Shown: positions 3,185 to 45,332, numbered from the stretch's first letter. The stretch: 64,000 nt of DNA from Poseidonia sp. (GCA_040261535.1 JBDQNU010000002.1:56661-120660); one strand, 5' to 3'. A program made the numbers and translations. Notes: generated from the sequence alone by a model not told the origin.

Positions 3185-3371
3185 GCGAACAAGTACAAGC
3201 GGTCGCGGGAGATTCTTGAACACACCGACAGAACCCGACGGTATCGAGTGTTTTGGTGTGCTTTCGCACGACGTCAAGGCGTGCATGTATGAACAATGTT
3301 CCATCACCCTCATAAGCAATCTGAGCAAGGTATTCTTTGAGCGAAGCGTATGCTTTGCAGCAGGCGAGAAC

Positions 3372-9122: not shown

Positions 9123-9184
9123 TGTCGGCCCCCATCTGACCTTGAACCGCATGGTTCAAATCGTAGGTCGGCTGTCTTCTAGCC

Positions 9185-12100
9185 ATGCAGAGCGGCGGAC
9201 AGCATACAATCGGCACTCGCGGCGTCTTTTTACTCCTCGTCGGCCTTATGTTTCTCACGCCGCTGAGCCCTCTTGCCAACATGACGGCGCTGGACGCCGA
9301 AGCGGCTCCCGGGACACGGCACGTCTACCTCTTCAAGGACGGGTCAACCGAACACATCGCCCTCTACCAAGGCGCCAACCCCGACCTCGGCGCCATGGTC
9401 GAACTCCCTCGAGGTGCCTTGGTGACCGACGTGACCATGACCCTTTCAGGCGCTTCCGCCACGGGATGGTCGCAAGTCGTTGCCGATGACCGTGTCCACT
9501 GGGTTCGCGGCGCTGAATCCGGAACGGACGACCGCAGCGGCGATTTGACGCTTGCCCTCTCCAACGTGAGCCGCAACTTCCTGCCGCACGGAAACGATGC
9601 TTACATTCATCCCAATTCCGATGCATGGTTGGACAACGGTTCCTATGCCTTGCGCCAACCGCACACCTCCAACGCAACGGAGACCCTCTTCTCCCAGCAG
9701 CTGACCAAGACCTCTTCGTCCTTTATGGCCCAAAGCCAAGGGGCCATTCTGAAGCATCACGATTGGTTGTTCCTCTCCACATGGTCGTCCTCGACCTTCC
9801 ACAACGTGGTGGAGCGCCTGTACCCCAACAACGCCACCCGTGAGTCGGTCATCACGCTTGAGCAGGCTTCGTGCACCTTGCCTCAGAAGCATTCCTCCTC
9901 GTACTACGCCTATTACGGGTTCCGTGATTGGACCGTGACCGACGACGAACGCTTGTTCGGTATCCTTTCGGGCTACCGCTACTCCTACGGTTCCACGGCT
10001 CCCGTCAACTACCATCGAGTGATGGAAATGGACATCTCACGTGACGACACGTGGACCTGCATTGATTCCTATGACATCTCTCCATCGGTTGGCGAGTACA
10101 CCGGAATCGCTTACGATCGGGACACTGGAAAGGTTTGGGTGGCGCACAACGCCATGAATCGGCTCTACGCTTACGATTTCGCTGGAGACGGAACGTCCAC
10201 CTACACCCGCAGTCAAGAATTCTACACCTACACCTCGTCCTCCAGTTCAACCTGGGAATGTGGCGGTAGCACGTCGAACAACCAGAAGCAAATGCTACGC
10301 GGCTTGGAAGTCAACGGATCGACCTTCTACATGCGATGCCAGAAGGACTACTACTACAATGACCGGGACCAACTTGAGGCCTGGTCGGTTTCGGGTTCCT
10401 CCTCTGCTCTGATTCCCGAGTCAACCGTCCGCCAAATCTCTCGACTTGGGTACGGCTTGCAATTTGACGGCGAGCGCTTTGTTACCGTTGATTGTGGCTA
10501 CTCAACGTGGTCCGGCGCTACGCTCTACTACCGTGAATTCGGAACCGGATGGCTCTACGAAACAACACCGTCGCCGGGCACGACCACTTGGTACGGCGAT
10601 GTGATTCAAACGGGCGACCCTGTTTTGGCTGCGAACGTTCAGACCTACTGGTCCGCCGCATCCATTGGTGACCGCGTTGACTACTGGGTCTCCGCTGACA
10701 ACGGAACGCACTGGGAAGAAGTGGAATCGAACTCGACCATTCACTTTGACTACCCAGGGACCGAATTGGTGTGGAAGGCCCAACTCATCGGCTCCACGGC
10801 GGTGTCGTGGTGGGTTGACATGGATTATGCCACGGCCTATTCTTCGCAAGGCGATTGGACCTCTCCGTACTTCAACACCGGCACCAAGGTCGGAAAGGTT
10901 CGTCCGCAATGGACCGCCGATGTTCCCGCTGGAACCACGCTGACCGTCCAAGTCTCAAACGACAACGGAACCACCTGGCTGGACGCCACGAACAATGCAG
11001 AAACGAGCTTTTCAACCGAAGCCGCTGGAAACACGCTTCGCTATGCCGTGGTGATGGGAACCAACGACGCCACCAAGACGCCCAAACTCGACCGCTTTGT
11101 CTTGGAATACGAGGAAGGTTACCCGGACCGGCCCATGCTCGATATTGGCGGTGACGGGACGTACGATTGGGAATCCGATATTTTCCTCAACGAGTCTTCC
11201 GTCGTCGCCTCCGATGACTCGCCGGTCGGTGAGATCGTCAAGCGAGCTCCAACCCTCGTGGACGCCTTCAACGACCACATCCCCGAAAACGGAGACGGCA
11301 TGGTGACCGTTCCAATTGGCGTGAAAGCAGCGAGTGCAGGCCGTGTGAAGATCTCCAACATCGACATCACCTATGCCATGCAGACTCGCGCCGTGGATGC
11401 GTCCTTCGAGGGCGGCCTCGCTGCCCCGGACGGGATCTACAGGAACTTCATCACACGGGTTGCTCCGGGTGACGAAGTCGACCGTGTTACCAAGGCGGTC
11501 ATCGCCATCGACCACACGTATGGCGAGAACCCTTCGTTCAACTGGGAGCGAGGCGATGTTTGCTCGGTCAATTCGGACGGCGGTGGCATTGTCGTCTTCG
11601 ACGTCACCAACTGCACCTCAACCGTCGATGCCAACGATGTCGTCTCCATTTGGATGCCAACCAAGGTGAACTGGAGTTGGAACGACGAGGCAAGTACCGA
11701 AGCCATCATTTCGGTCGAGGACGACTTGGGACCATCGGTGACCCAGTGGATGACCTCGGACATGGAATTGGTCGTTGAAAACGACATCCAGCTTGACGGC
11801 CTGCGTGTCTGGGAAGAAACCGGTCGGCAACTCTATCCGATGGATTGGGTGCGTGGAGGATTCAACCTCAGTTTCAGCGGCTCGATCCACTTCCAGGACT
11901 CACAACTCATGCCTCCAGCAGGGAGTTTCTCTCTGCGCGTCATCGGTCAGAACGTCACCTTCGACGGCGACCCGATGGGTGAACCCATGGTGCTCTATGA
12001 AGAGGTGAACCCGGCCTTCGGTGCCTACAACATGACCTTCACCTCTCCCATTGAATCCGCTCCTGGAGGGATGATCTTCTACGTCCAAGCCGTCGACCTC

Positions 12101-14632
12101 GAAAACGGTTCAACCTTCACCAACCCCAACTACAACAGCATCCGTTTGATTCTCGACGGCAATTCACCGCTCGTGCTGAGCGCCACCCCGCTTGACGGTA
12201 CTGAACGCCATGCTGGCGCAGCCGGCGTCGGTCAACCCGTCTCCATCGTGGTCCAAGATTCGGTTGACCCTCCGCGGCAGTTGAACCTTCACTACTGGGT
12301 TGGGTGCAAAGCCAGCGAAGCCATCGGCTGTACGGATTACAACTTTGACGGGCTCCCCAACGAAGACGAGTACGAACTGGTCACCCTTTCCTCGCCTGAA
12401 ACGCGAGCCGGTGGCCTCAACATCTTCGAAGGGCTCATTGACGATTCCATGCTCCTGCATCGACAGCGGGTTTCGTTTTACGTCTCGGGTGAAGACGAGC
12501 AAAACAATCAGATCGCCATGGGCCAAGGACCCGTATGTCCCGCCTCGACCATCACCTGCGGCAACCGCCCGGGTGAAGTGCTCCCCGATTGGGATGCAGA
12601 TTTGGTCACCTACCACATTCGTCAAGAATTTGAACCTGAAGTTGACCTTGGGAACACGTCGATCCTCGGTCACGATGACTACGCCCCCCTTCACCCCGGC
12701 ATCCCCTACACTGCGCAGATCAAGTTGAGCGACACGAACGGATGGCAGGACATTCAGTATGTCCAAGTCGCCCTTGGAGGTGACTTCGATGACGACGAAT
12801 CCTCGTTGTTCATTTCCCTCGCCGAAGGTCAAGACGGTCATCCAAAAGCGGTCATGACTCCGGGTTCGAGCAACATCGCTGTTTCCAACCTGTATTCGAC
12901 GGTTTCACTGGAGGAAGGTGACGATTCCGTGGTGGTCATTCAAGCACGCTTCCAACTAACCTGGATGTTCCCCGAATCCTTTGACACAAACGGCGTGAGT
13001 CACTTCCTCCCCCGGGTCAAAGTCACCGACATGCCGTGCAACGACAACGAGGTGACGCCTTGTTTCGAGGTCATGGAAGGCATGGGCGACGATTGGTGGA
13101 GCCTTGACAACGATTTCCGCTTTGATACGGAAGCAGGTCACATTCGTGCCATCGAACTGAGGAACAGCGAGAACCACTACAACGAAGAAAATTTCGAAAC
13201 GATCATCGGTGCTGGCCAAGCCCTCCGGGTTTCCGGGCGGGTGCTGTTCTCGGAAGACGAAACTCCGGCTCCTCCCGGTGCCTTTGACGTCGTGTTTGGG
13301 GATTTCCAAAACAACTGGAGAACCTCCACTCGCGAGGACGGTGACTTCAGTCTTGATTTGCTTGTTCCTTCGGTGCGTTCGGGCCGTTTGGACCTCCGTT
13401 TGAGCATGGACGATTTGCCCGGTTTGGCCGTTGACGAAAGCGAATTTTCGCCTCGGGTCCGCCTCGCCGTTGACAGTTCACGGCCCACCATCGACAGCAT
13501 CTCCCTTGGCGGCGTGCCCGTTGGCTCCCCGTTATCGATTGGGGCTGCTGAGAACCTCGAGGTCATTCTTGTTACCAACGATGAAAACGGGTTTGACTTT
13601 GAGGAGGCCGCTGTGCTTCACTATCGCGTGAAGGCCGGTGAAGCCGAAATTTCTCGAGGCAGCGTTCTGCTCCCCGACATCACCAGTTTCGGTCAGGAAT
13701 ACTTCTGGAGCGGCAGATTGGATTTGACGGATGCGGGTGCAACGACGCTGTTGCCGTCGTACACCGTTGACGTTTGGGTTTCTGGCTCGGACAAGGCAGG
13801 AAACCCCTTCAACACCGTCGACAATTCGATGATGGAACCGTTTGCTTCATGGCCGCTCGCTCTGCTGGGTCCCCGCATCGATTTGCAGCATGAAGCGTCC
13901 AGTCTTCAATGGGACATTCCGTCTCCGTACGAAGGCGAAACCGCAACGTTGTTCGTTGAAACCGAGAATCTGGGCGGTAGCGGTCAAGTTGAGTACGCTC
14001 TGCAAACCTTGGTCGAGGGTGGATTCTGGTCCACCGTTGAAATTGCAGGCGTTGAAGCGACGGCTGGAGCGACCCTCACGGCTGCCTTGCCGGTAACGCC
14101 TGTGGAAAGCGCCGGCTCCACCATTGAGTACCGGGTTTTGGTCTTGGTTGACGGCGTTGAAATGGACCGTGCCACCGTTGCCTCGTTGTTCATCAAGGAA
14201 GAAACGGTTCGTGACGGCGAAGCGCTCACGCAACAACTCTCCAGCGATGTGTTCAGCGTGACGTTGTTCGTCATCGCCCTCGCCTCGGTTTCGTTCGGGA
14301 TGTACGCTCTCGTGCTTCGTCGGCGCTTGCTCGCCCCTGAAACCGAGGAAGAACTCGCCGATCAAACCGATGTGGTCGTCGAGGAAATGGTCTCGGGCAA
14401 GACCGTCCCAACGCTTCAGGCTCCGCCCGTACCGCCTGCACCGTCAGGCCAAGTGCCGCCACCGCCTCCCGGTGCCAAAGCACCGCCTGCTCCTCAACAA
14501 GCACCGGCTGCGCCCGGTCCTGACCGAAGTTCACCTCCTCCGGTTCCTCCAACCGGCCTTCCCGAGGGTTGGACCCAAGCACAGTGGGACTCGTACGGCT
14601 GGAAGTACATCGACGCCCTCGCCAAGAAATGA
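9185..14632 (+). CDS. Giant type I membrane surface protein (1815 aa): signal peptide, large ectodomain, C-terminal TM, Pro-rich cytoplasmic tail
   Basis: N-terminal signal GVFLLLVGLMFLTPLSPLANMTALDA. C-terminal TM VFSVTLFVIALASVSFGMYALVL followed by RRR. The tail ends PPVPPTGLPEGWTQAQWDSYGWKYIDALAKK. Single uninterrupted ORF. Confidence 0.85.
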   Translation: MQSGGQHTIGTRGVFLLLVGLMFLTPLSPLANMTALDAEAAPGTRHVYLFKDGSTEHIALYQGANPDLGAMVELPRGALVTDVTMTLSGASATGWSQVVADDRVHWVRGAESGTDDRSGDLTLALSNVSRNFLPHGNDAYIHPNSDAWLDNGSYALRQPHTSNATETLFSQQLTKTSSSFMAQSQGAILKHHDWLFLSTWSSSTFHNVVERLYPNNATRESVITLEQASCTLPQKHSSSYYAYYGFRDWTVTDDERLFGILSGYRYSYGSTAPVNYHRVMEMDISRDDTWTCIDSYDISPSVGEYTGIAYDRDTGKVWVAHNAMNRLYAYDFAGDGTSTYTRSQEFYTYTSSSSSTWECGGSTSNNQKQMLRGLEVNGSTFYMRCQKDYYYNDRDQLEAWSVSGSSSALIPESTVRQISRLGYGLQFDGERFVTVDCGYSTWSGATLYYREFGTGWLYETTPSPGTTTWYGDVIQTGDPVLAANVQTYWSAASIGDRVDYWVSADNGTHWEEVESNSTIHFDYPGTELVWKAQLIGSTAVSWWVDMDYATAYSSQGDWTSPYFNTGTKVGKVRPQWTADVPAGTTLTVQVSNDNGTTWLDATNNAETSFSTEAAGNTLRYAVVMGTNDATKTPKLDRFVLEYEEGYPDRPMLDIGGDGTYDWESDIFLNESSVVASDDSPVGEIVKRAPTLVDAFNDHIPENGDGMVTVPIGVKAASAGRVKISNIDITYAMQTRAVDASFEGGLAAPDGIYRNFITRVAPGDEVDRVTKAVIAIDHTYGENPSFNWERGDVCSVNSDGGGIVVFDVTNCTSTVDANDVVSIWMPTKVNWSWNDEASTEAIISVEDDLGPSVTQWMTSDMELVVENDIQLDGLRVWEETGRQLYPMDWVRGGFNLSFSGSIHFQDSQLMPPAGSFSLRVIGQNVTFDGDPMGEPMVLYEEVNPAFGAYNMTFTSPIESAPGGMIFYVQAVDLENGSTFTNPNYNSIRLILDGNSPLVLSATPLDGTERHAGAAGVGQPVSIVVQDSVDPPRQLNLHYWVGCKASEAIGCTDYNFDGLPNEDEYELVTLSSPETRAGGLNIFEGLIDDSMLLHRQRVSFYVSGEDEQNNQIAMGQGPVCPASTITCGNRPGEVLPDWDADLVTYHIRQEFEPEVDLGNTSILGHDDYAPLHPGIPYTAQIKLSDTNGWQDIQYVQVALGGDFDDDESSLFISLAEGQDGHPKAVMTPGSSNIAVSNLYSTVSLEEGDDSVVVIQARFQLTWMFPESFDTNGVSHFLPRVKVTDMPCNDNEVTPCFEVMEGMGDDWWSLDNDFRFDTEAGHIRAIELRNSENHYNEENFETIIGAGQALRVSGRVLFSEDETPAPPGAFDVVFGDFQNNWRTSTREDGDFSLDLLVPSVRSGRLDLRLSMDDLPGLAVDESEFSPRVRLAVDSSRPTIDSISLGGVPVGSPLSIGAAENLEVILVTNDENGFDFEEAAVLHYRVKAGEAEISRGSVLLPDITSFGQEYFWSGRLDLTDAGATTLLPSYTVDVWVSGSDKAGNPFNTVDNSMMEPFASWPLALLGPRIDLQHEASSLQWDIPSPYEGETATLFVETENLGGSGQVEYALQTLVEGGFWSTVEIAGVEATAGATLTAALPVTPVESAGSTIEYRVLVLVDGVEMDRATVASLFIKEETVRDGEALTQQLSSDVFSVTLFVIALASVSFGMYALVLRRRLLAPETEEELADQTDVVVEEMVSGKTVPTLQAPPVPPAPSGQVPPPPPGAKAPPAPQQAPAAPGPDRSSPPPVPPTGLPEGWTQAQWDSYGWKYIDALAKK

Positions 14633-14645
14633 GGATTGATTCAGC

Positions 14646-15086
14646 GTGGTTGACACCCCTGTTGACGGCATGGTCACCTTGCAGGAGCGTACCGTGAACT
14701 TGGTGAATCAACTCAACATGCCGCTGGTTGAAGTGTCCTTGGTTCTTGCCCGCCACATCAATCGGCTCATGCAAACGTTGACCGAGCATCTTGACGCCAC
14801 CAATCAGTCAGCGAGCGAACGCGTTACACGTCCGTGGCCTCTAGATGTTGAGGCGGCGGCTTCTTCGTCGAATTTCTCGCTTGACAAGGTCATGGACATC
14901 GTCGACCAGCAACGAATGGACATTCTGGATACGCTTATTCGCGTCACCTTGGTTGAAATCAACGCCTCGGTCATCGACGCCCTGCTCGCTCTCCGGGCTT
15001 GGGAACACCTCGCTCGTATGCAGCTGGCGCTTGCAACCGGACCGGGGCAGTTGTTCTCTCCGTTGGAGATTCCAGAAGACTGGTGA
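14646..15086 (+). CDS. Hypothetical small helical protein (no signal peptide)
   Basis: 146-aa ORF starting at GTG, 13 nt after the giant gene's stop (alternative ATG at 14670). No recognisable motif. Supported by its position between two same-strand genes. Confidence 0.45.
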   Translation: MVDTPVDGMVTLQERTVNLVNQLNMPLVEVSLVLARHINRLMQTLTEHLDATNQSASERVTRPWPLDVEAAASSSNFSLDKVMDIVDQQRMDILDTLIRVTLVEINASVIDALLALRAWEHLARMQLALATGPGQLFSPLEIPEDW

Positions 15087-15123
15087 ACAAGGACTTCAAA
15101 AACGAGGGCGGCGAGGTCGTGTC

Positions 15124-15912
15124 ATGACCCATGCCCGTGGAACGGCCCTCGTGCTCGTGACGCTGGTGTTGTTGGTGCCGGCCTCAGGCTGCTTGGGCGA
15201 AGATGGGCTGCAGGTTTTCCCCGAAAAGAAAGGCGTTCCCGGCGGCCTTACTTTGGCGTGTTTGCGGGACGCTTCGTTCACGTCGATGGTGATTGAAATC
15301 GACCACGCCCCCGGTTACCGGCCGTACACGAGTTCCACGGACCTTTTGGTGGAGCGGTTGGAACAAGTTTGTGAAAAACCCGGAGGCATCCGCATTCAAT
15401 ACAACGAGGTGGCGTTTGGAGAACAGGCTTCATGGAGCGCCCAAGATGTTCGCGACGAAGGTTGGGAGAACAAGGACGCCTCTCCCATGGACGGGAACAC
15501 GCTTCGATGGCAGATCCTCTTCCCAGAGGGGACCTACGAAGACGAGAGTGTTCTCGGTGTCGCCGTCGATGCATCGACCATGGCGCTTTTCAGCGATGCG
15601 ATTGAGGAGGCTGACGGCCTGTTTGGCCGACCTTCCGTTGAAGACGTTGAGAACAGCGTCATCGTCCACGAGGCAGGCCACCTGCTCGGTTTGGTTAACC
15701 TCGTCTACACCTCTCCCGTGAATCACGAAGATCCGGATCACCCGGGGCACTCAAGCAACGACGATTCGGTGATGTATTGGGCCATTGAATCCACGGGACT
15801 GGTGAATTTCATCACGGGCGACCTTCCAACGGCGTTTGATGACGATGATTTGGCGGATCTTGCAGGTTTGGCGAGCGGGGACATCCCGGTTGGAGATCAA
15901 CTCTGGCCTTGA
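15124..15912 (+). CDS. Metzincin-like zinc metalloprotease, predicted lipoprotein
   Basis: Start at ATG 15124: MTHARGTALVLVTLVLLVPASGC, a signal peptide plus lipobox-like SGC. Zinc motif HEAGHLLGLVN, nearby HEDPDHPGH, and a possible Met-turn SVMYW. The track ORF start at 14845 overlaps the previous gene. Confidence 0.7.
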   Translation: MTHARGTALVLVTLVLLVPASGCLGEDGLQVFPEKKGVPGGLTLACLRDASFTSMVIEIDHAPGYRPYTSSTDLLVERLEQVCEKPGGIRIQYNEVAFGEQASWSAQDVRDEGWENKDASPMDGNTLRWQILFPEGTYEDESVLGVAVDASTMALFSDAIEEADGLFGRPSVEDVENSVIVHEAGHLLGLVNLVYTSPVNHEDPDHPGHSSNDDSVMYWAIESTGLVNFITGDLPTAFDDDDLADLAGLASGDIPVGDQLWP

Positions 15913-26743: not shown

Positions 26744-27112
26744 TTGGGCCTTGGGAGGTTCATGGCGATTGAACGGTTGTTGACAGGAAGCATCCAAAAC
26801 CAAATTCAAGAGTTGATGTCAACCGAAGATTTGGTCATCGAGGCGTTCCGTGATTTGGTCAAGGATGAACTCAAGGCACACATCAGGGCAAAGGTTGACG
26901 ATGACCCCGATCTGAAAGCCGAAATCAAGGAGGCCGTTGCCTATTATTTCCACTCCAAGGCCCGTAGCATTTACGCGGAGTTGAAAGCCACCAGGGCCGC
27001 AACCCGGCTCGGCTTGCGCCTGCTTCCCGATGAATTGCAAGGCGAGGTCGGCGAGGCTTTGGTCACGCTGTTCGAAAAAGAACTTGGGGCTCTCCTCGAA
27101 AAAGCACTTTGA
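26744..27112 (+). CDS. Hypothetical small helical protein
   Basis: 122-aa ORF with charged helical composition (alternative ATG at 26762). Tightly packed between same-strand genes. Confidence 0.45.
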   Translation: MGLGRFMAIERLLTGSIQNQIQELMSTEDLVIEAFRDLVKDELKAHIRAKVDDDPDLKAEIKEAVAYYFHSKARSIYAELKATRAATRLGLRLLPDELQGEVGEALVTLFEKELGALLEKAL

Positions 27113-27177
27113 GGCTCATCGGCTCACCGCGAGGCGTTCATGTTATGTGCAGGTCGTCCGTGGAACGGCTGAAAGCC

Positions 27178-32147: not shown

Positions 32148-34568
32148 TCAAAACTCCAGATCATCCTCAGGTTGTTGCTTGGAGGGGGCCATCGCCTCTT
32201 GGAGCGGTTGAACATCGGACAACACGGTGGTCGGGACTGGCTCGCTTGCAGAGGTGGGCGAGAGGGGATGACCTGGGTTTTGAAGCGATGACAACCCATC
32301 GTTTGCCTTGGCTTTGCTGATGTCTTCGGTTCGTTTGTCCAGCACCAAGGTTGCGGCACTCACAAGCGCATCGTCAACCGGGGACTGAGGTTGGCTTGCC
32401 TGCCCGTGGGCATGACGAAACATCGCTTCGTAGGTCTCTTTTGGAACCGCTTGTAAGGGCTCGCGAGGAGGCTCAGGATCTTCAACGGGCGTTGGTTCTT
32501 TTTGGTAGCGAGCCATCCAGTCGTCCTCCGCACTTTTTTCCTGGTAGGGCAACACGTTTTGCTGTTCCAGTCGACGGTCACGGTCAATCACCGCCTTGTA
32601 AATCACGAGGCTCGCGAACACGATGGCAAGCAACACGCCTGACCATGCTTTGAGATAGAGCACGGCGGTGCTGGCCATGCCGCCCCAATCGATGCCTGCG
32701 TCCTCTTCGTCGACCGGTTGCCAGGCTTGCCCCAGATAGTCGCCGGTCGAGGTGTGAATAAACGGCAATTCTGGAGCGTAGCGCGACCGAATGCTGGTGG
32801 TGATGGTGACCGTGCCGTTGTTGACCTGGTCTTGAGGGAGTTGAACCCAAGCACGGATGGTGAAGTTGGAGTTGAGAGGAACATCGTTGATTTCGAAGGA
32901 ACGTGGGAACTCAACATCCTCCTCGTAAACAGCGTTTTCAGGAGGGATGAACCCCATATCGACCACGTGGCTTGATTGCAATTGGACGATGAGGCCATCC
33001 ACGGCATTTCCATCGTTTCTCGCCTCCATGGCGATGGTGAGGCGACCCCTTGCATTGACCTGCTCAGCAACGTTTCTGAAGGTCCAATTGATTTCTGGTC
33101 CGACGACCAACGGAACGCTGACCGTGTCAAGGACGGTTCCAGCATCACCAAGAACCTCGATGGAGGCAAGGCCGGTCATGAAGGCAACGCTCCCTTCATC
33201 GGCGCCCACGCTGAGAGGGGCGAAGGTTTTGGTTTGGCCTTGCTGAACGAGCATGGTATTGGCAGGGAGCGCGACCTCAAACCCGTCCGTGACTTCACTG
33301 AGGCGCAGGAGATAGGTGTTGTACGAATTGCCCGTGTTGAGCACGCTAATGCTAACTGAACATGGTTGAGTGGACAGAATGTTGTTGCACCCGTTTTCGC
33401 TGTAGCTTGCCGATGCCGATGCTGTGCGGTTGATGGTGGCCGTCATCGGGGCCGTTCGCAACAAGGTACTCGCTCCGTTGGCAAAAACTTGCAGTTGAAT
33501 GCTGAGGCCACCTTCGAATTCATTCGGTGCTTGGAAACCGATCTCAACGGTTCGGCTCTCGTTGGGTTGGAGGACGATGTCTTCCAGACCGCCGAAGAGG
33601 GCGACGACCCATCCATCCTCCGTAAACCGGTCGGACGGTGATGAGCCCGGGAGGAGTCCTCCGTTTTCATCCAGCGGTTGAAGGGTGATGTTCAGCGTGT
33701 TGGGTGTGTTCCCAACGTTACGAACGACCGCATACAGGCGTCCGTCCTGGTTGGGTGCGACTTCCAAAAGCGGGTCGTAGGCGTCGATTGTCGCGTTCTT
33801 CTTTTCATTCATCATCAAATCAACGGACCATTGAACCGCCGCTCTGTCAAGCGAGGAAGTGGCCGTGAGCGTAAATCGCGGGCCGGTTTCAAAGAGGGGC
33901 ATGCCGTTTTGAATGGCGGGGACATCCACCCAGAAATAGGCGTAGACGAGTTGTCCTGGCTGCACAAGGAGGTGGGCCGTTCCGTCGACGATGTTTTGCA
34001 TGTCCCAGCCCCATGCCCAACCGGAATTGGAGGAGAGGGAGAAGGACACGTTGTCAGCCATGGTTCCGTTGTTGGAGAGGTTCATCGCAACGGAGGTTCG
34101 TACCTTTTCATCAACCGTCAGTTGACTGACGCCTTGGGCTCCAAAGTTGAGGTTGGACCAAGGGGCAACGATGACGTTCATGCTGATGGTTTTCGATTCG
34201 GCCCCCTCAAGGTCGCTTGAGACGCTGAACGAGACCGTGTGGTTTTGGAACGCTGCGGTTGCGTTGGCTTTAATGGAGAACGTGAGCTGTCGCAGGTGAT
34301 TGGGGACAACGATTTCGGAGAGCGGCAGGCCCAAGACCGTGAGCGGTTCGGGCACGCTCAACACCTCCACGGTCAAGGCTTGGTTCGCGTTTGCTTTGTT
34401 TTGGACCGTGATGTAGGTCGAGACGGTTTCGTTTTGATGCACGATGACCTCGCTCGGGGCGATGGCGCCGATAACGTCTTCATCACGTCCATCCGGAAGA
34501 CTTTCTGCCCCAAAGACTGGGCTCATGGTCGGGAGCGCCAAGAGGACCAAGACCGCTACCCAGCGCAT
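32148..34568 (-). CDS. Type I membrane surface protein with CARDB/COG1470-like Ig modules
   Basis: Signal MRWVAVLVLLALPTMSPVFGAES (ATG 34568). Repeated x-N-x-G-N strands (LSNNGTMADNV, VRNVGNTPNTL, VLNTGNSYNTY, EARNDGNAVDG). C-terminal TM VLLAIVFASLVIYKAV plus a ~190 aa tail. Confidence 0.75.
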   Translation of the reverse strand: MRWVAVLVLLALPTMSPVFGAESLPDGRDEDVIGAIAPSEVIVHQNETVSTYITVQNKANANQALTVEVLSVPEPLTVLGLPLSEIVVPNHLRQLTFSIKANATAAFQNHTVSFSVSSDLEGAESKTISMNVIVAPWSNLNFGAQGVSQLTVDEKVRTSVAMNLSNNGTMADNVSFSLSSNSGWAWGWDMQNIVDGTAHLLVQPGQLVYAYFWVDVPAIQNGMPLFETGPRFTLTATSSLDRAAVQWSVDLMMNEKKNATIDAYDPLLEVAPNQDGRLYAVVRNVGNTPNTLNITLQPLDENGGLLPGSSPSDRFTEDGWVVALFGGLEDIVLQPNESRTVEIGFQAPNEFEGGLSIQLQVFANGASTLLRTAPMTATINRTASASASYSENGCNNILSTQPCSVSISVLNTGNSYNTYLLRLSEVTDGFEVALPANTMLVQQGQTKTFAPLSVGADEGSVAFMTGLASIEVLGDAGTVLDTVSVPLVVGPEINWTFRNVAEQVNARGRLTIAMEARNDGNAVDGLIVQLQSSHVVDMGFIPPENAVYEEDVEFPRSFEINDVPLNSNFTIRAWVQLPQDQVNNGTVTITTSIRSRYAPELPFIHTSTGDYLGQAWQPVDEEDAGIDWGGMASTAVLYLKAWSGVLLAIVFASLVIYKAVIDRDRRLEQQNVLPYQEKSAEDDWMARYQKEPTPVEDPEPPREPLQAVPKETYEAMFRHAHGQASQPQSPVDDALVSAATLVLDKRTEDISKAKANDGLSSLQNPGHPLSPTSASEPVPTTVLSDVQPLQEAMAPSKQQPEDDLEF

Positions 34569-34664
34569 GAAGTCGGCTAAGGCAGGCCCCCTATGAAACA
34601 CTCCCCTTCATGCTGGATTTAGCCGTAGCGTAGGTTTCTTCAATCATGTTGAACAGGCCTGCTC

Positions 34665-40346: not shown

Positions 40347-43300
40347 ATGAAATCCAGAGCATGGCTCGTTGTCGTCCTCTTTCTGTTGGTTTCAACCCCT
40401 CTTACCGGTGCAGTTGAACCGGTTGCATCGAAGGATTTCATCAGCGCATCCGACGAGGTCAACGCACCCGCTATTGAGCCTTTGACGGAGGCCCAACGGC
40501 TCGTCATCGCCAAAGAACACTGGTCACCGATGCCAGCAGCAACGATGTTCGAGTCGTCGCTTAAACCCTCATCGGGTCTTGTCCACCAAGCAGCAGGTTC
40601 GTTCGATCCCTTGCTCTCGATAGGTCCGACCCTGCCAGGCGAACTCACCAGAGCGGAAGACATGGCGCACACCGGCCTTGTCATCGTCCAATTGAACACG
40701 CCGAACGGCGACCTCATGCAATCCATCGCAGAGGACCTCGGCTTGACCGTGCTCGACGCTTCCGGTGACGAGGCTTGGCTGCTTCGACTTCCGGAAAGTC
40801 CGGATGCCGCCGTTGCCGGACTCGGCTCAAGTGAACACGTTCGCTGGTTCGGCTCTCAACAACCCGGTTGGCGATTGGCTTCATCCCTCGTCGTCAATCC
40901 AGCCTCCTCGCCCACCGTTCATTTGGTGCCGGCATCGGATCTGGCATTGGGCGGCTACGGCGTTCTTGCAACGGATTTGGTGCGGTACGGGGCATCCGAA
41001 GTTGCTTGCGATGCTTGGTCGTGCACCGCTTCGGTGAACCCAGAAATCGCTCAGATCTTCGTCCAAAACATCGCCCATGATGGACGAATTCTCTGGACAG
41101 AACCCGGACATGAACTTCGGGTGCACAACGCCTTGGCCTACGCTGTTTCGGGAATCCAAAACACCGCGAACAACGCCACGTTCACCCTTGACGGCTCCGG
41201 TGAGATGGTCGCCATCGCCGACACCGGTCTTGACAGCAACCACCCCGACCTTTCCGGTCGAGTGGCTGCTACCTACACCCAGTTTGGCCTTGACCCCTCA
41301 CCCGCTGACTCAAACGGTGGCCACGGCACCCACATCGCCATCACGGTCTTGGGCAACGGCTCCGGTGACGCCGCAGCTCGAGGCATGGCGCCCTCGGCAA
41401 CGCTGGTCATGTATGCGCTTGAACACGACCCCACCGGGACCTTCGGACGAATTGGTTCAATCTACGACATGCTTCGGGATGCAGAACAAATGACGGCCCG
41501 TATTTCGGTCAATGCTTGGGGATTGAACGGGAATTACGGGCAATACACCGCCGATGCACGTTCCGTCGACACCTTCGTCCACGACCGTAAGGATTTGACA
41601 CCCATCTTCTCCGTGGGCGACCGAGGTGGGTCCGGTGCCTCCCAAGTCACCTCCCCGGCGACAGCAAAGAACGTCATCGCTGTGGGTGCATCAACCACCG
41701 GGGCAAGCGGAACCCCCGGAGCAGGGGCCGTCGCGAACTTCTCATCGCTCGGTCCGAGTTTGGACGGTCGTGTGAAACCCGATGTGGTGGCTCCCGGTGT
41801 CGGCATTTGCTCCGGACTCGCCGAAGAGGCTCGCAATCCAGCGGGTTCGAATTGCCTCTCCGGGTCTCACGCAAGCGGGAATGCCTACTACATGTCGTTG
41901 AGCGGCACATCGCAAGCAACGGCCGTTGCATCAGGTGTCGCTGCGTTGACCCGAGAATTCATCCGGGAACAAGCCATGGTATCCTCGCCTTCCAGCGCTC
42001 TGGTCAAGGGCGCCCTCATCAACGGGGCAACCGATCTGGGCGACCCCGACATTCCCAACGCCGCTGAAGGCTGGGGTCAAGTGAATCTCGAACGGACCGT
42101 GCTTCCGATGGACGGCTCCACGCCCCTGGACACCTTCTTCGACGACAAAAAATCCCTTGAGCCAGGCTTTGGGTTGTTGTATTCATTCGACCTGAACCCG
42201 AGTCACGGTCTTGACTTGACGTTGACGTGGACGGACCTCGCAGGGAGCGCCAACGCAGCTCAATCCGAGAGCCGCCTCGTCAACGACCTCGATTTGGTCC
42301 TCGTCAGTCCGGACGGCACGGAATGGCTCGGGAACAACTTCGTTTCCGGGTTTTCAATATCGGGAGGCGTGGCCGACGATGTCAACAACGTTGAACGGAT
42401 ACGCATCGCACCGGGGACGTTGCCCTCCACCACCGAAAGTTGGATTGTTAAGGTGCTCCATCGAAGCGGGTCGACGCAAGATTTTGCCCTGGTCATGACC
42501 GCCTTGGCCACGCCCACGCCTCGAGCCGACCTCGTGGTCTTTGACGGAAGCATTCTGACCTCTTCAGCGAACCCGCTCAAAGACGATTTGATTTCCATTC
42601 GAATCGCTTGGGCCAACCAAGGAACAAGCCAAGCCCCTGCCTTTTCGGTCAAATTGGAGGACCTCACCACCCAGACCACCTTGGCGACCGCGACACGGCC
42701 CAGTCTTGGTCCGGGCATGATCGACTCAACGACCATCTTCCATCAGTTCACGACCACGGGGATTCACCAACTGCGTTTATCCATCGACACCAACAACACC
42801 GTCGTGGAGATGAACGATGCCGTTAACGGTGTTGACAACAACGTCTTGGTACAGGATGTCGAGGTCAAGGCCTTGGGCGTTCGCGTGGTGGTTGAGAATG
42901 CGGACGGCAGCATCCCCACCTCGCCTGAGGACCGAGCGAACAACGCCAACATGGTGCTTGACGTTCGCAACGACTCCGGCATTGATATTCCGCTGTCCAT
43001 CCTGCACGAAGGTACGGGCAACCAATCGGTGAAACTCTCGGTGACCACGGTTCAAATCCCTGCTCCCGGGCGTGATGATTTCTTCCTCCCAAGTGCTGAC
43101 CAGTGGACCCGAACGTTCAGCGAATCATCGACGTTCATGCTCACGGCCCAAGGGACGTCAACCGCGAACAATTCCCTCAACCTCCGCCTCGAGGACATTG
43201 ATGCGGACTTGACGGGCGACCCCTCAAACCCTCGCTATGTTCGTTCCGGAACATACGTGGTGGATGTCACGGCGAGATACGAAATGCAACCCACCGTCGC

Positions 43301-45332
43301 CCACACACAACGGATTTTTATCGAGGTTGAACAACTTGACCAAGTTCAAGTCGTCGCAGCCGGAACAATCGGGCTTGAAGCGGCTCCTGGGGGCTCCAGC
43401 TTCTTTTCCATCTCCGTGCGCAACACCGGCAATGCACCTGCACAATACAGCATGGAATGTCTTTCAGAGAACCGCTGGCAGGTCATGTTGGGTTCATCCA
43501 ATTCGTCACAGTTGGATTTTGAAGCCTTGAACATCCTTGAATACCTCCCGATGTCCATCCGCGTGATTGTCCCGGAAGTTGCCAACGGGTTGCCTGCTGC
43601 TGGTGATACGGACCAAGTGACCTGTTACGTGACCTCTGCGACCGACCCGAGCATGAATTTCACGGAAACCGTGACCATTGCGGTTCTTGCACAAGAGTCG
43701 TTTGACGTGCACTTGATGGACGACGATGGCAGGGTAGGACCCAACCAGCTTTCACCCGACCTTGCGGTCGATAGCGGGCAACAAGTTCACATGAACCTCA
43801 GCATCGAAAACACCGGGAACATCATGGTCGAACTGGACATTTCGGTCCTTCCCAACAACCCACAATGGGCGATACAAGTCAGCTACGATGATGTGAGCGA
43901 CACCCGTCGCCTCTCCCTCTCTCTCGGCCCTGGTGACGAGGCCGTTGTTCACTTTATTTTCGCCGTGCCGCTAACGGCAGAGGAAGGAGACTCCAACTCC
44001 TTCACCATCCGCACGGAACGATCCCTGTCGAACTTCCGGCAAAACATCACTCGTTTGGTGGTGAAGGACGAGTTGGGCGTTCAACTCACGGCCCCTGAGA
44101 GCATGCGCATCGATGCGGTCATTTCCGACCTGTTCACCTACGGTGAATTTGTGGTCAAGAACACCGGCAACACCAATTTGGGTCTGAACTGGACACACGG
44201 GCTGGCTCCCGATGGTTGGCGTGTTGGGTTTGCCAATCCCACCGTGTATCTTGAACCGCGGGAAGAGAAGGTCGTCCGATTCGGTTTGGTCCCTCCTGCA
44301 GGCACCCCCGCAACCCAAGAGGCGTTCGAACTGCTGGTGATGGTCAACGCCACCAACAACGGACGTTTCGTGGAGGCCTCTCAAACCGTGACCGTCGGCG
44401 TGTTGGATTCGATGTTTGGCAACATCACTTCGCCGTTGACTGGGAAGGAATTGCTTGGTATCTCTCGGGATGAAGGGCGAACGTCCTCCTTCGTGGTGCG
44501 TAACGACGGCAACGTGCCTCTGTCAGCCGACCTCACCGCTTTACTTCTCGATGATGAAATGGTCCAAAAGCAGGATTGGACGATTCGGGTGGAACCCGAT
44601 GTTGTCGCTAACCTCGACGTTGGCGAAAGCGTGACGGTTGAGGTGACCCTCAAGCCGAAGGAAAACGTTGCGCGCGGCATTTCAAACCTCTACCTTAACC
44701 TCACCAATAACGATGGTCTCCTTGGCCAACTCACGCTCGAGGTCAGCGCATCGACCGCCACGGGTTCATCGGGTCTTTTCAGCATCTTGCCTCCCGCAGT
44801 GAGCATTGGTTTGGTGACCGTCTTGCTTGCCGGTGCCGTGGTCTTGGCTCGGCGCATGAAGAAGGGCGGTGAATTGGTTGACAACAGCACCGATCTCGTT
44901 GCACCCGACACCCACGGAGACCCCGACACGCTTGGCCTCCGAAGAGGAGAAGCTTTGGACCTTGGTACGGCCGTTGACGAACTCACCAGCGGCGAAGTGA
45001 GCGATGAGGAAATTGCCCAAGCCATCATGCAATCGATTGATTTGCCCGTCGTCCCTGCAGCCGTGCCCTCGGGTCTGCCGCCCTCGGGCATGCCTCCAAG
45101 AGCAGCCCCTCCAGCAGCGCTTCCTCCCGCAGGGATGCCACCCGCTGGCTTGCCTCCCTCGGCCTCGAAAGCCCTACCGCCGCTCCCCCAACCCACCGCT
45201 GTTCAGCCGGTAGCCCGCTCCGTACAACTCCCCCAAGCACCTCCGCTACCGCCCACCGGTCTTCCCGCAGGTTGGACCATGGAACAGTGGCAGCACTACG
45301 GTCACGAATGGCTGGCCCGGCAAAACCAATGA
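40347..45332 (+). CDS. Giant membrane-anchored subtilisin-like serine protease (S8) with a long Ig-like stalk, TM and Pro-rich tail
   Basis: Signal MKSRAWLVVVLFLLVSTPLTGAVEP (ATG 40347). Catalytic triad motifs AIADTGLDSNHPD, HGTHIAITVLG and SGTSQATAVASGVAAL. More than 900 aa of x-N-x-G-N modules (VRNTGNAPAQ, IENTGNIMVE, VKNTGNTNLG, VRNDGNVPLS). TM VSIGLVTVLLAGAVVLARR. The tail ends PPLPPTGLPAGWTMEQWQHYGHEWLARQNQ. Confidence 0.9.
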   Translation: MKSRAWLVVVLFLLVSTPLTGAVEPVASKDFISASDEVNAPAIEPLTEAQRLVIAKEHWSPMPAATMFESSLKPSSGLVHQAAGSFDPLLSIGPTLPGELTRAEDMAHTGLVIVQLNTPNGDLMQSIAEDLGLTVLDASGDEAWLLRLPESPDAAVAGLGSSEHVRWFGSQQPGWRLASSLVVNPASSPTVHLVPASDLALGGYGVLATDLVRYGASEVACDAWSCTASVNPEIAQIFVQNIAHDGRILWTEPGHELRVHNALAYAVSGIQNTANNATFTLDGSGEMVAIADTGLDSNHPDLSGRVAATYTQFGLDPSPADSNGGHGTHIAITVLGNGSGDAAARGMAPSATLVMYALEHDPTGTFGRIGSIYDMLRDAEQMTARISVNAWGLNGNYGQYTADARSVDTFVHDRKDLTPIFSVGDRGGSGASQVTSPATAKNVIAVGASTTGASGTPGAGAVANFSSLGPSLDGRVKPDVVAPGVGICSGLAEEARNPAGSNCLSGSHASGNAYYMSLSGTSQATAVASGVAALTREFIREQAMVSSPSSALVKGALINGATDLGDPDIPNAAEGWGQVNLERTVLPMDGSTPLDTFFDDKKSLEPGFGLLYSFDLNPSHGLDLTLTWTDLAGSANAAQSESRLVNDLDLVLVSPDGTEWLGNNFVSGFSISGGVADDVNNVERIRIAPGTLPSTTESWIVKVLHRSGSTQDFALVMTALATPTPRADLVVFDGSILTSSANPLKDDLISIRIAWANQGTSQAPAFSVKLEDLTTQTTLATATRPSLGPGMIDSTTIFHQFTTTGIHQLRLSIDTNNTVVEMNDAVNGVDNNVLVQDVEVKALGVRVVVENADGSIPTSPEDRANNANMVLDVRNDSGIDIPLSILHEGTGNQSVKLSVTTVQIPAPGRDDFFLPSADQWTRTFSESSTFMLTAQGTSTANNSLNLRLEDIDADLTGDPSNPRYVRSGTYVVDVTARYEMQPTVAHTQRIFIEVEQLDQVQVVAAGTIGLEAAPGGSSFFSISVRNTGNAPAQYSMECLSENRWQVMLGSSNSSQLDFEALNILEYLPMSIRVIVPEVANGLPAAGDTDQVTCYVTSATDPSMNFTETVTIAVLAQESFDVHLMDDDGRVGPNQLSPDLAVDSGQQVHMNLSIENTGNIMVELDISVLPNNPQWAIQVSYDDVSDTRRLSLSLGPGDEAVVHFIFAVPLTAEEGDSNSFTIRTERSLSNFRQNITRLVVKDELGVQLTAPESMRIDAVISDLFTYGEFVVKNTGNTNLGLNWTHGLAPDGWRVGFANPTVYLEPREEKVVRFGLVPPAGTPATQEAFELLVMVNATNNGRFVEASQTVTVGVLDSMFGNITSPLTGKELLGISRDEGRTSSFVVRNDGNVPLSADLTALLLDDEMVQKQDWTIRVEPDVVANLDVGESVTVEVTLKPKENVARGISNLYLNLTNNDGLLGQLTLEVSASTATGSSGLFSILPPAVSIGLVTVLLAGAVVLARRMKKGGELVDNSTDLVAPDTHGDPDTLGLRRGEALDLGTAVDELTSGEVSDEEIAQAIMQSIDLPVVPAAVPSGLPPSGMPPRAAPPAALPPAGMPPAGLPPSASKALPPLPQPTAVQPVARSVQLPQAPPLPPTGLPAGWTMEQWQHYGHEWLARQNQ

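What the first reader, a model, noticed from the sequence alone, without database searches (positions are those of the whole stretch)
14537..14632. Near-identical extreme C-terminal tag PPxPPTGLPxGWTxxQWxxYG on the cytoplasmic tails of two unrelated giant surface proteins
The protein at 9185-14632 ends ...PPVPPTGLPEGWTQAQWDSYGWKYIDALAKK*. The S8 subtilase at 40347-45332 ends ...PPLPPTGLPAGWTMEQWQHYGHEWLARQNQ* (nt 45240-45332). Their ectodomains are unrelated. Both have the same tail architecture: TM helix, basic stop-transfer, acidic stretch, Pro-rich linker, then this Trp/Tyr-rich tag within the last ~30 residues. The other anchored proteins in the window (21143-23356, 32148-34568, 55882-61659) lack it. 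LPxGW recalls the first strand of a WW domain, but the rest does not fit. I do not recognise it as PGF-CTERM or any other known archaeal sorting signal, since those precede or include the TM, whereas this tag is cytoplasmic. It could be a docking or sorting tag that links selected surface giants to a cytoplasmic partner.
Basis: seen in the sequence. Interest (0 to 1): 0.7.

Follow-up and report, generated by a model that had tools for sequence, protein, structure and literature searches.

The report
Shared cytoplasmic tail tag, marine archaea
Many unrelated surface proteins of the abundant ocean archaea Poseidoniales (Marine Group II) end, on the cytoplasmic side of the membrane, in the same conserved and so far undescribed 25-30-residue peptide, which most likely docks them to a common but still unknown partner inside the cell.

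Summary
Two unrelated proteins of this Poseidonia (Marine Group II) window, 9185-14632 and 40347-45332, end in PP[VL]PPTGLPxGWTxxQWxxYG. The tail is their only similarity. DNA identity in the motif is 70%, with synonymous differences, so this is not a recent duplication. A profile of the tag finds 630 protein clusters among 1.84 billion. In every hit examined it lies at the C-terminus: in about 90% of the best hits 7-23 residues follow the YG, and the rest carry 32-75-residue extensions. It sits 28-144 residues after a single TM helix that obeys the positive-inside rule. At least seven unrelated ectodomain families carry it, in both Poseidoniales families. Among orthologues the tag is as conserved as the ectodomain (0.80), while the Pro-rich linker is not (0.41, with indels). 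Invariant residues use all synonymous codons, so selection acts on the peptide. AlphaFold predicts a disordered tether ending in an acidic amphipathic aromatic helix. Pfam, NCBIfam, Foldseek and the literature give no match, and the WW resemblance fails on testing. The best reading is a tethered docking peptide for an unidentified cytoplasmic partner. That function is inferred, not shown. Tails are modular cassettes that also carry other shared motifs.

The parts
9185..14632 (+). Gene for protein B (1815 aa). It is a type I surface protein with no Pfam domain above threshold, and it is the first tag carrier.
   Evidence: ORF list, Pfam scan. Syntenic orthologues in 10 Poseidoniales MAG loci all keep the tag.
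9185..9298 (+). N-terminal signal-like hydrophobic segment of protein B.
   Evidence: Sequence MQSGGQHTIGTRGVFLLLVGLMFLTPLSPLANMTALDA.
14249..14317 (+). Single TM helix of protein B (VFSVTLFVIALASVSFGMYALVL).
   Evidence: Hydropathy and coordinates. Identity among orthologues is 0.79.
14318..14398 (+). Juxtamembrane segment of protein B: basic stop-transfer (RRR) followed by an acidic stretch.
   Evidence: identity 0.72. Positive-inside statistics.
14399..14533 (+). Pro/Ala-rich linker of protein B, variable in length.
   Evidence: Length is 27-47 aa among orthologues, identity 0.41, and 30 of 52 columns contain gaps.
14534..14629 (+). C-terminal tag of protein B (core 14537-14611: PPVPPTGLPEGWTQAQWDSYGWKYI).
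   Evidence: Identity among orthologues is 0.80. Synonymous codons are saturated at invariant residues.
40347..45332 (+). Gene for protein E (1661 aa from the Met at 40347). It is an S8 subtilase (aa 283-577, nt 41193-42077) with a CARDB domain (nt 42525-42827). It is type I and is the second tag carrier.
   Evidence: Pfam scan. P0122, in a cluster that includes a Thalassarchaeaceae protein, is 38% identical over the full length and keeps the tag.
44775..44849 (+). Single TM helix of protein E.
   Evidence: The AF2 model of the tail has a helix at residues 14-38.
44850..45041 (+). Juxtamembrane basic then acidic segment of protein E. It contains a short predicted helix (DEEIAQAIMQ).
45042..45239 (+). 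Pro-rich linker of protein E with GLPP/GMPP repeats, predicted disordered.
   Evidence: AF2 pLDDT is about 50.
45240..45329 (+). C-terminal tag of protein E (PPLPPTGLPAGWTMEQWQHYGHEWLARQNQ).
   Evidence: AF2 predicts a helix at MEQWQHYGHEWLARQ with pLDDT 83-88.
32151..32168 (-). C-terminal EDDLEF of the untagged type I protein D (32148-34601). It resembles the LLDD[LF]D[LF]-COOH motif that ends the extended tails of a subset of tag carriers elsewhere.

Best explanation
The tag is a conserved C-terminal peptide module of about 25-30 residues. Its consensus is G-P-P-[LIV]-P-x-x-G-L-P-x-G-W-[TS]-M-E-Q-W-x-[HY]-Y-G-x-Q-[YW]-L, usually followed by 8-13 more residues. It is found on single-pass (type I) surface proteins of Poseidoniales. 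It hangs in the cytoplasm at the end of a disordered, variable-length Pro/Ala/Gln-rich tether, 28-144 residues after the TM helix. It consists of an extended Pro-rich stretch followed by an acidic amphipathic helix whose conserved Trp, Tyr, Gly, Met and Leu residues line one face. Shown here: the tag is real, it is selected at the protein level, it is cytoplasmic and C-terminal, it is shared by many unrelated ectodomain families, and it matches no described domain. Inferred: it is a tethered docking peptide. A common cytoplasmic partner, such as a scaffold, cytoskeletal or sorting/quality-control factor, would recognise it and so couple a chosen set of surface proteins to the cell interior. 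It would then work like the cytoplasmic-tail motifs of eukaryotic adhesion receptors or the Pro-rich tails of mycoplasma adhesins. Tails, from TM to tag, appear to have been exchanged as cassettes between genes over evolutionary time.
For: - **Spread.** A profile of the tag hits 630 cluster representatives at E<=1e-3 and 226 at E<=1e-10 among 1.84 billion.
- **C-terminal position.** In all 157 proteins examined the motif lies at the C-terminus, and in 142 of them 7-23 residues follow the YG.
- **Upstream TM.** All 96 copies in 80 marine metagenome loci have an upstream TM helix, 95 of them at 29-132 aa. The representative hits that lack a TM are nearly all short fragments. Short 'stand-alone' ORFs on Mb-size contigs are frameshift pieces of larger genes.
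- **Topology.** K+R is 0.27 before the TM and 2.98 after it, and 62 of 70 complete ORFs have an N-terminal hydrophobic signal.
- **Carrier families.** At least seven unrelated carrier families were found: PKD/CARDB, the protein B family, arylsulfotransferase-like, S8 subtilase and three without domains.
- **Taxa.** Source labels name Poseidonia, Poseidoniaceae and Thalassarchaeaceae.
- **Conserved island after a variable tether.** Tag identity is 0.80 against 0.41 for the linker, which also has length indels.
- **Selection on the peptide.** Invariant Pro and Gly residues use all four codons. Pairwise codon differences are 694 synonymous against 287 non-synonymous.
- **Predicted structure.** The only confident element in the tail after the TM is the tag helix, at pLDDT 83-88. 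The rest is at about 50 and pTM is 0.19.
- **Helix properties.** Conserved residues fall on one helical face. Net charge averages -1.6 and is positive in only 2% of tags.
- **Cassette exchange.** Two unrelated ectodomain families are similar only in their last 131 aa (35% identity, E 3e-14).
Against: No partner has been identified. Gene neighbourhoods show only conserved housekeeping synteny (TBP, thermosome, LonB, PheRS, DnaJ) and no neighbour common to all contexts. No interaction, localisation or expression data exist, because the organisms are uncultured. Only the best 150 of the 630 hits could be inspected, so divergent or non-C-terminal copies among the weaker hits cannot be excluded. 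The AlphaFold result for a short peptide may be biased towards a helix. The protein B family keeps its own flavour of the tag (SYGWQYIDAL), so there may be more than one partner or function.
Confidence: 0.55

Rival explanations
1. Self-association module. The aromatic helix of one tail binds the PPLP/Pro-rich stretch or the helix of neighbouring tails. This would cluster surface proteins into patches or a lattice without any separate partner.
For: The tag combines a PP[LIV]P stretch with a Trp/Tyr-rich helix, which are the two halves of classical proline-recognition interfaces (established knowledge). Many different carriers coexist per genome, and tandem pairs are common (16 of 80 loci). The best PDB sequence hit is the SAV1 WW region, including its second WW domain, which from memory is the atypical dimer-forming one.
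Against: The PDB hit is marginal (E 0.003 and 0.13). There is no evidence of oligomerisation. The helix is acidic (net charge -1.6), which would disfavour self-packing without counter-charges.
Confidence: 0.13
2. Interfacial membrane anchor. The amphipathic Trp/Tyr helix folds back and lies on the inner leaflet, stabilising or sensing the membrane.
For: The helix is predicted to be amphipathic, with aromatic residues on one face. Trp and Tyr favour membrane interfaces (established knowledge).
Against: Net charge is negative, and only 2% of tags are positive. Mean hydrophobicity is about 0. The strictly invariant G, L, P, G, W, Q and W are unusual for lipid-binding helices, which tolerate substitution. 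A 28-144-residue tether is not needed to reach a membrane the protein already spans.
Confidence: 0.08
3. Nascent-chain regulatory peptide. The W/P/G-rich sequence acts inside the ribosomal exit tunnel, as an elongation or termination pause, to coordinate release of large membrane proteins.
For: The tag usually ends 8-13 codons before the stop, so it sits in the exit tunnel at termination. It contains PP motifs and conserved Trp, Gly and Pro, as known arrest peptides do (established knowledge of SecM and TnaC). Conservation is at the amino-acid level.
Against: In about 30% of carriers the stop codon lies 39-75 residues further on. The conserved positions match a helical face. No downstream gene shows the dependent arrangement typical of arrest-peptide regulation.
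Confidence: 0.06
4. C-terminal degron or quality-control handle, recognised by a membrane protease or unfoldase such as LonB, for regulated turnover of surface proteins.
For: The location is exposed, C-terminal and disordered-tethered, as for other C-terminal degrons. One carrier family (cluster 24) sits next to lonB in every locus that extends past the gene.
Against: The LonB adjacency is a single syntenic context among several. It is hard to explain why dozens of stable structural surface proteins would keep a constitutive degron.
Confidence: 0.07
5. Truncated or atypical WW domain, or a self-folded PP-fold/Trp-cage-like miniprotein, that acts as a proline-binding domain rather than as a ligand.
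For: The LPxGW start, with G at +9 and Y/W at +12 from the Trp, matches the spacing of WW strands 1-2. SAV1 WW domains are the best PDB hits. A PPII stretch followed by an aromatic helix recalls the pancreatic-polypeptide fold (from memory).
Against: None of 59 tags hits any Pfam WW model, even at E<=10. The third strand and the second Trp, 20-22 residues on, are absent because the protein ends. AF2 predicts a helix, not a hairpin. Foldseek finds nothing.
Confidence: 0.05
6. The similarity is an artefact of recent duplication, gene conversion or low-complexity composition.
For: Both tails are Pro-rich, which inflates local alignments.
Against: Nucleotide identity is only 70% and is confined to the motif. 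Synonymous sites are saturated among orthologues. Shuffled windows give 0 hits. The profile E-values fall to 1e-17.
Confidence: 0.01

Closest known systems
Archaeosortase/exosortase C-terminal sorting signals (PGF-CTERM, PEF-CTERM, PEP-CTERM and similar)
   Same: A short signature shared by the C-termini of otherwise unrelated surface proteins within one lineage. It marks a selected subset of the secretome.
   Different: Those signals consist of a motif immediately before the TM helix, followed by a short basic tail, and they are cleaved at the outer face. Here the motif lies 28-144 residues after the TM, in the cytoplasm. No NCBIfam or Pfam CTERM model matches.
WW domain (Pfam PF00397), especially the atypical second WW domain of SAV1 (PDB 2DWV, 7BQF)
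   Same: It has the GLPxGW start, preceded by a PPLP-like stretch, and a Gly and an aromatic residue at WW-like spacing. SAV1 WW domains are the best PDB sequence hits (E 0.003 and 0.13).
   Different: There is no second Trp and no third strand. The Trp-Trp spacing is 5 residues. No Pfam WW hit occurs in 59 tags, and the region is predicted helical.
Cytoplasmic-tail docking motifs of eukaryotic adhesion receptors (for example integrin NPxY binding talin, or C-terminal PDZ ligands)
   Same: A single-pass receptor with a short conserved peptide in a disordered cytoplasmic tail, shared across different ectodomains. The tails carry several motifs in a modular arrangement.
   Different: There is no sequence relationship, the host is archaeal, and the partner is unknown. 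This is a functional analogy only.
Pro-rich cytoplasmic C-terminal tails of Mycoplasma pneumoniae adhesins P1 and P30 (from my own knowledge)
   Same: Surface adhesins anchored by one TM helix, with a Pro-rich cytoplasmic tail thought to connect to an internal cytoskeleton-like structure. The relatives Thermoplasma and Ferroplasma also lack a wall.
   Different: There is no sequence similarity. The mycoplasma tails have no equivalent conserved terminal Trp/Tyr helix. The envelope of Poseidoniales is unknown.
FtsZ C-terminal peptide bound by SepF (archaeal LDDFI...GID; PMC8178401)
   Same: This concerns only the second motif, LLDD[LF]D[LF]-COOH, found on extended tails. It is an acidic-hydrophobic C-terminal peptide after a disordered linker and resembles LDDFI. 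A probable divergent sepF-like gene lies directly downstream of those genes in the loci that extend past them (27 loci in all).
   Different: The GID core of archaeal FtsZ tails is absent. The main GLPxGW tag bears no resemblance. Adjacency may be plain synteny, and the SepF assignment is below the Pfam threshold.

Membership tests
WW domain (PF00397) | Match to the curated family HMM. | tested here: not met
   The 60-aa window tails gave no Pfam hit at E<=1. None of 59 tag sequences hit WW at E<=10.
WW domain (PF00397) | Two signature Trp residues about 20-22 residues apart, and a C-terminal Pro. | tested here: not met
   The two invariant Trp are 5 residues apart. Most proteins end 8-13 residues after the YG.
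WW domain (PF00397) | Three-stranded antiparallel beta-sheet. | tested here: not met
   AF2 with 59-sequence and 8-sequence alignments predicts a helix over MEQWxHYGxxWL at pLDDT 83-88 and no strands. This is a prediction only.
WW domain (PF00397) | Sequence similarity to solved WW domains. | tested here: inconclusive
   The profile against PDB gives SAV1 tandem WW at E 0.003 (the sum of two weak stretches), single WW2 at E 0.13, and an Itch 8-mer at E 0.8.
Archaeosortase-type C-terminal sorting signal (PGF-CTERM and relatives) | Signature motif directly N-terminal to the C-terminal TM helix, followed only by a short basic tail. | tested here: not met
   The tag lies 28-144 residues C-terminal to the TM, and basic residues follow the TM directly.
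Archaeosortase-type C-terminal sorting signal (PGF-CTERM and relatives) | Match to the NCBIfam/TIGRFAM CTERM models. | tested here: not met
   NCBIfam release 20 gives no hit in either tail at E<=1.
Type I secretion C-terminal signal (RTX-type adhesins) | No N-terminal signal peptide and no TM anchor, with an uncleaved C-terminal signal that is exported. | tested here: not met
   62 of 70 complete carriers have an N-terminal hydrophobic signal, and all have a TM before the tag.
Short linear docking motif in a disordered tail (functional class) | A conserved island flanked by fast-evolving, disordered sequence of variable length. | tested here: met
   Tag identity is 0.80 against 0.41 for the linker, whose length ranges 27-47 aa. 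AF2 pLDDT is about 50 in the linker and 83-88 in the tag.
Short linear docking motif in a disordered tail (functional class) | A defined binding partner. | not testable with these tools
   No multimer prediction, whole genomes or experimental data were available. The neighbourhood analysis found no common partner gene.
PP-fold / Trp-cage-like miniprotein | A polyproline-II segment packed against an aromatic alpha-helix in a monomeric fold. | tested here: inconclusive

The most novel reading that the evidence does not exclude
Poseidoniales may possess an inside-outside coupling system not yet known in archaea. In this reading a cytoplasmic hub protein, a scaffold or cytoskeletal element, recognises the GLPxGWTMEQWxHYG tag. 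Dozens of different surface enzymes and adhesins would then be physically tethered, positioned or sorted through interchangeable multi-motif tail cassettes. One companion motif, LLDDLDL-COOH, would mimic the FtsZ tail and engage a SepF-like protein, linking surface proteins to the division machinery. This would be a prokaryotic analogue of integrin-adaptor-cytoskeleton coupling in one of the ocean's most abundant archaeal groups.
Probability: 0.2. Interest if true: 0.85.

Novelty: new variant of a known kind. Interest (0 to 1): 0.62.

Why it matters
Poseidoniales are among the most abundant archaea in the surface ocean and remain uncultured. Their large surface proteases and adhesins are thought to underlie their use of particles and proteins as food. 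A single conserved cytoplasmic tag shared by many of these proteins implies a common intracellular handling or anchoring machinery that nobody has described. The tag provides three things:
- a sequence signature (HMM) that defines this subset of the surface proteome in metagenomes;
- a concrete bait peptide for finding the partner;
- an archaeal example of modular, multi-motif disordered cytoplasmic tails that were exchanged as cassettes, an organisation usually associated with eukaryotic receptors.

It also deserves a Pfam/NCBIfam entry, because the carriers whose database names I saw are labelled 'hypothetical protein', 'uncharacterized membrane protein' or 'S8 family serine peptidase'.

Tried and rejected
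- **Recent duplication or gene conversion.** Rejected: 70% nucleotide identity, confined to the motif.
- **Known domain.** Pfam, NCBIfam, a PDB sequence profile and Foldseek gave nothing beyond a marginal SAV1 WW hit.
- **Literature.** String searches for GWTMEQW, LPEGWT, LPAGWT and GLPEGW, and topical searches, found no description.
- **Viral carriage.** Six IMG/VR contigs contain a GWTMEQW coding pattern, but none is the tag.
- **Stand-alone small soluble tag proteins.** The three short ORFs checked on long contigs are frameshift fragments of large genes in long-read assemblies.
- **Partner by gene neighbourhood.** I clustered 988 ORFs from 96 loci. Only lineage synteny appeared, and no neighbour was shared by all contexts.
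- **The search for homologous proteins.** With the tag as query it returned only short fragments, so it added no domain census.
- **AF2 of the protein B tail with orthologue rows.** A heterogeneous tail alignment for protein E was used instead.
- **Poseidoniales FtsZ.** I looked for one in the held loci to compare its C-terminal peptide with LLDDLDL, and found none.
Full report
**1. Observation**

The two tails read exactly as reported. ORF 9185-14632 (protein B, 1815 aa) ends ...PPVPPTGLPEGWTQAQWDSYGWKYIDALAKK*. ORF 40347-45332 (protein E, 1661 aa) ends ...PPLPPTGLPAGWTMEQWQHYGHEWLARQNQ*.
- A six-frame regex scan finds only these two copies in the window.
- In 300 codon-shuffled windows the strict pattern never occurred and a loose pattern occurred 0.013 times per window.
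- BLASTP of the two full proteins aligns only the tails (E 4e-5).
- Protein E has an S8 subtilase and a CARDB domain. Protein B has no Pfam domain above threshold.
- Over the 22 motif codons the DNA is 46/66 identical, with synonymous differences, and the similarity stops at the motif. This is not a recently duplicated tail.

Both proteins share the same layout:
- an N-terminal signal-like segment;
- one TM helix (14249-14317 in B, 44775-44849 in E);
- a basic then acidic juxtamembrane stretch;
- a Pro-rich linker;
- the tag (14534-14629 in B, 45240-45329 in E).

**2. Organism**

The window encodes archaeal markers: eIF-6 and DUF5591, which I recognise as an archaeosine tRNA-guanine transglycosylase domain. 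Its DnaJ is 91% identical to that of a Poseidonia sp. MAG, and the best matches are all Poseidoniales. The window therefore comes from a Marine Group IIa archaeon.

**3. How widespread the tag is and where it sits**

A 34-position profile of 11 tags was searched against 1.84 billion representative proteins. It gave 630 hits at E<=1e-3 and 226 at E<=1e-10. I examined 157 proteins in all: the 150 best hits plus the other first-search hits.
- In every one the motif is C-terminal. The median is 10 residues after the YG, and 142 of 157 have 7-23.
- A TM helix lies 28-144 residues upstream (median 70) wherever enough sequence is present. The hits without a TM are nearly all short fragments.

A scan of marine metagenome contigs returned 80 loci (947 kb) holding 96 copies.
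- All 96 have an upstream TM, 95 of them at 29-132 residues.
- The reading frames carrying them are 133-1841 aa long.
- 16 loci carry two tagged genes.

Short 'stand-alone' ORFs with the tag on Mb-size contigs are frameshift fragments of large genes in long-read assemblies.

The positive-inside rule places the tail in the cytoplasm. K+R averages 0.27 in the 12 residues before the TM and 2.98 after it, and the count is higher after the TM in 96 of 105 tails. Of 70 complete ORFs, 62 start with a hydrophobic signal-like segment. Some apparently complete carriers are small: P0099 is 215 aa and P0132 is 357 aa. The tag is therefore not confined to giants.

**4. Who carries it**

Clustering all ORFs of the loci puts tagged proteins into at least seven unrelated families:
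- a PKD/CARDB family of about 1200 aa, present in at least three different syntenic contexts and often as tandem pairs;
- the protein B family;
- an arylsulfotransferase-like family;
- the S8 subtilases;
- three families without known domains.

Source labels, where present, are Poseidonia sp., Ca. Poseidoniaceae, Ca. Thalassarchaeaceae, or generic Thermoplasmatota/Euryarchaeota. Names are 'hypothetical protein', 'uncharacterized membrane protein' or 'S8 family serine peptidase'. P0122, an S8 homologue whose cluster includes a Thalassarchaeaceae protein, is 38% identical to protein E over its whole length and keeps the tag. The six IMG/VR viral contigs that match the GWTMEQW coding pattern do not carry the tag.

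**5. Selection**

Ten syntenic orthologues of protein B from Poseidoniales MAGs all keep the tag. Mean pairwise identity by segment is as follows:

| Segment | Identity | Note |
|---|---|---|
| Last 211 ectodomain residues | 0.75 | |
| TM helix | 0.79 | |
| Juxtamembrane stretch | 0.72 | |
| Pro-rich linker | 0.41 | length 27-47 aa; gaps in 30 of 52 columns |
| Tag | 0.80 | |

Invariant Pro and Gly positions use all four codons. Pairwise codon differences within the tag are 694 synonymous against 287 non-synonymous. Conservation therefore acts on the peptide, not on an overlapping DNA or RNA element or on the antisense ORF 14271-14789.

**6. Structure**

The consensus from the top hits is GPP[LIV]PxxGLPxGW[TS]MEQWx[HY]YGxQ[YW]L. 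The apparent invariance is inflated by hit selection.

AlphaFold2 gave these results:
- On a 59-sequence tag alignment it predicts a single helix over MEQWQHYGHEWLARQ, with pLDDT 85-88 across the 20 residues that include it.
- On the whole protein E tail it predicts the TM helix, a largely disordered tether (pLDDT about 50), and again the tag helix (pLDDT 83-86). The pTM of 0.19 indicates no compact fold.

On a helical wheel the conserved T, M, W, Y, G, Y/W and L residues fall on one face. The segment is acidic, with a mean net charge of -1.6, and only 2% of 310 distinct tags are positive.

**7. Comparison with known families**

- Pfam and NCBIfam give no hit for the tails.
- None of 59 tags hits WW or any other relevant Pfam model, even at E<=10.
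- A PDB sequence-profile search gives the SAV1 WW domains as best hits, but marginally: E 0.003 for the tandem construct and 0.13 for WW2 alone.
- The WW hallmarks are absent: a second Trp 20-22 residues on, a third strand, and a beta fold.
- Foldseek finds nothing.
- Archaeosortase-type signals differ in topology, because their motif sits before the TM and is followed only by a short basic tail.
- Literature searches for the sequence strings and the topic found no description.

**8. Mechanism**

The anatomy is that of a tethered short linear or peptide docking module. It is a protein-level-conserved island at the end of a disordered tether of variable length. It is acidic, it has one conserved aromatic face and invariant Gly and Pro residues, and it is shared by unrelated membrane proteins. 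I therefore favour recognition by a common cytoplasmic partner (confidence 0.55). The nature of that partner, whether scaffold or cytoskeleton, sorting factor or quality-control factor, is unresolved. Gene neighbourhoods reflect housekeeping synteny only.

The rivals, with my confidence in each:
- tail-tail self-association (0.13);
- inner-leaflet amphipathic anchor (0.08), disfavoured by the negative charge and the strict invariance;
- C-terminal degron (0.07);
- nascent-chain pause peptide (0.06), disfavoured by the variable distance to the stop codon;
- truncated WW or miniprotein domain (0.05);
- duplication or composition artefact (0.01), refuted.

**9. Modular tails**

About 30% of carriers (28 of 96 in the metagenome loci) extend 39-75 residues beyond the tag and end in LLDD[LF]D[LF]-COOH. 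The untagged window protein D ends in EDDLEF.

A further motif, [NS]SMYGG[AT]Q[ED][IL]FxQP, lies upstream of the tag in two unrelated families and in 34 of 264 tails. It occurs in none of about 880 untagged ORFs.

Those two families are similar only over their last 131 residues, from TM to end (35% identity, E 3e-14), and their ectodomains are unrelated. Whole tails therefore behave as exchangeable cassettes.

**10. Verdict**

This is a real, widespread and apparently undescribed cytoplasmic C-terminal module of Poseidoniales surface proteins. Its function is inferred, not shown. Limits:
- only the best 150 of 630 hits could be inspected;
- no whole-genome census was possible;
- no partner was identified;
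- the structures are predictions.

Noticed in passing
L101, L108, L110, L112, L122, L123, L134, L144, L146, L150, L159, L160 and others (second gene of tandem pairs); window 32151-32168 (-): About 30% of tag carriers continue 39-75 aa past the tag and end in LLDD[LF]D[LF]-COOH. In the metagenome loci these all belong to one PKD/CARDB subfamily. The untagged window protein D (32148-34601) ends ...QQPEDDLEF*. The motif resembles the LDDFI part of the archaeal FtsZ C-terminal peptide that SepF binds (PMC8178401).
   Followed up: partly
e.g. L108:9517-10107 (+), L101:10746-11306, L144:7908-8516; 27 loci in all: A conserved gene of about 195 aa lies directly downstream of the LLDDLDL-ending genes. 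It has an N-terminal MxSLWQFFGLPDP amphipathic start and a long linker containing vPxGWxGPvTxDGEPFHDL, which has WW-like spacing. Its C-terminal core matches Pfam SepF only weakly (E 0.008-0.05, below the cutoff). It is probably a divergent SepF.
   Followed up: partly
Tails of cluster 24 (e.g. L166:2412-6032, L001:7751-8207) and part of cluster 0 (e.g. L127:6518-10105): A third shared cytoplasmic motif, [NS]SMYGG[AT]Q[ED][IL]FxQP, lies between the TM and the tag in two unrelated ectodomain families and in none of about 880 untagged ORFs. Other recurrent tail elements are GYEDSLSATYGAVAAAP and GPP[IV]SxGPP[IV] repeats. The two families are similar only in their last 131 aa.
   Followed up: partly
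L001 4720-8207; L168 about 6852-10255; L169 about 8535-10261: Mb-scale ENA contigs with names ending in '_pilon' split large surface-protein genes into several overlapping ORFs through frameshifts. This produces spurious small 'proteins' made of just the tag, and these populate the protein databases.
   Followed up: yes
window 3018-9122 (+): A 2034-aa ORF immediately upstream of protein B carries repeated DxDGDGMPDGWE motifs (thrombospondin type 3-like calcium-binding repeats) and no C-terminal TM or tag. The GMPDGW strings are unrelated to the tag. The first ~80 residues of the ORF as called look non-native, so the true start is probably further downstream.
   Followed up: no
window 14845-15912 (+) and the small ORF family at L006:4547-5062: Two conserved genes without Pfam domains follow the protein B gene in the Poseidoniales loci that carry it (clusters 6 and 14). 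The small one (about 150-170 aa, helical and acidic) was not called in the window because of ORF overlap. Its function is unknown, and it was not tested as a possible partner.
   Followed up: no
window 14534-14629 vs 45240-45329; L002-L015: The protein B family keeps its own flavour of the tag (GW[TS]Q[ED]QWNSYGWQYIDAL) across species, distinct from the common GWTMEQWxHYGxQ[YW]L. This hints at subfamily-specific binding properties or more than one partner.
   Followed up: partly
window 27109-29196 (+), 19005-19958 (+): Other membrane or cytoplasmic proteins in the window end in Zn-ribbon-like CxxC...CxxC segments, for example ...CPACQTMNAVTTTERPHRFACVGCQ. A Zn-ribbon protein also lies near a tagged gene in L001. 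No link to the tag was examined.
   Followed up: no
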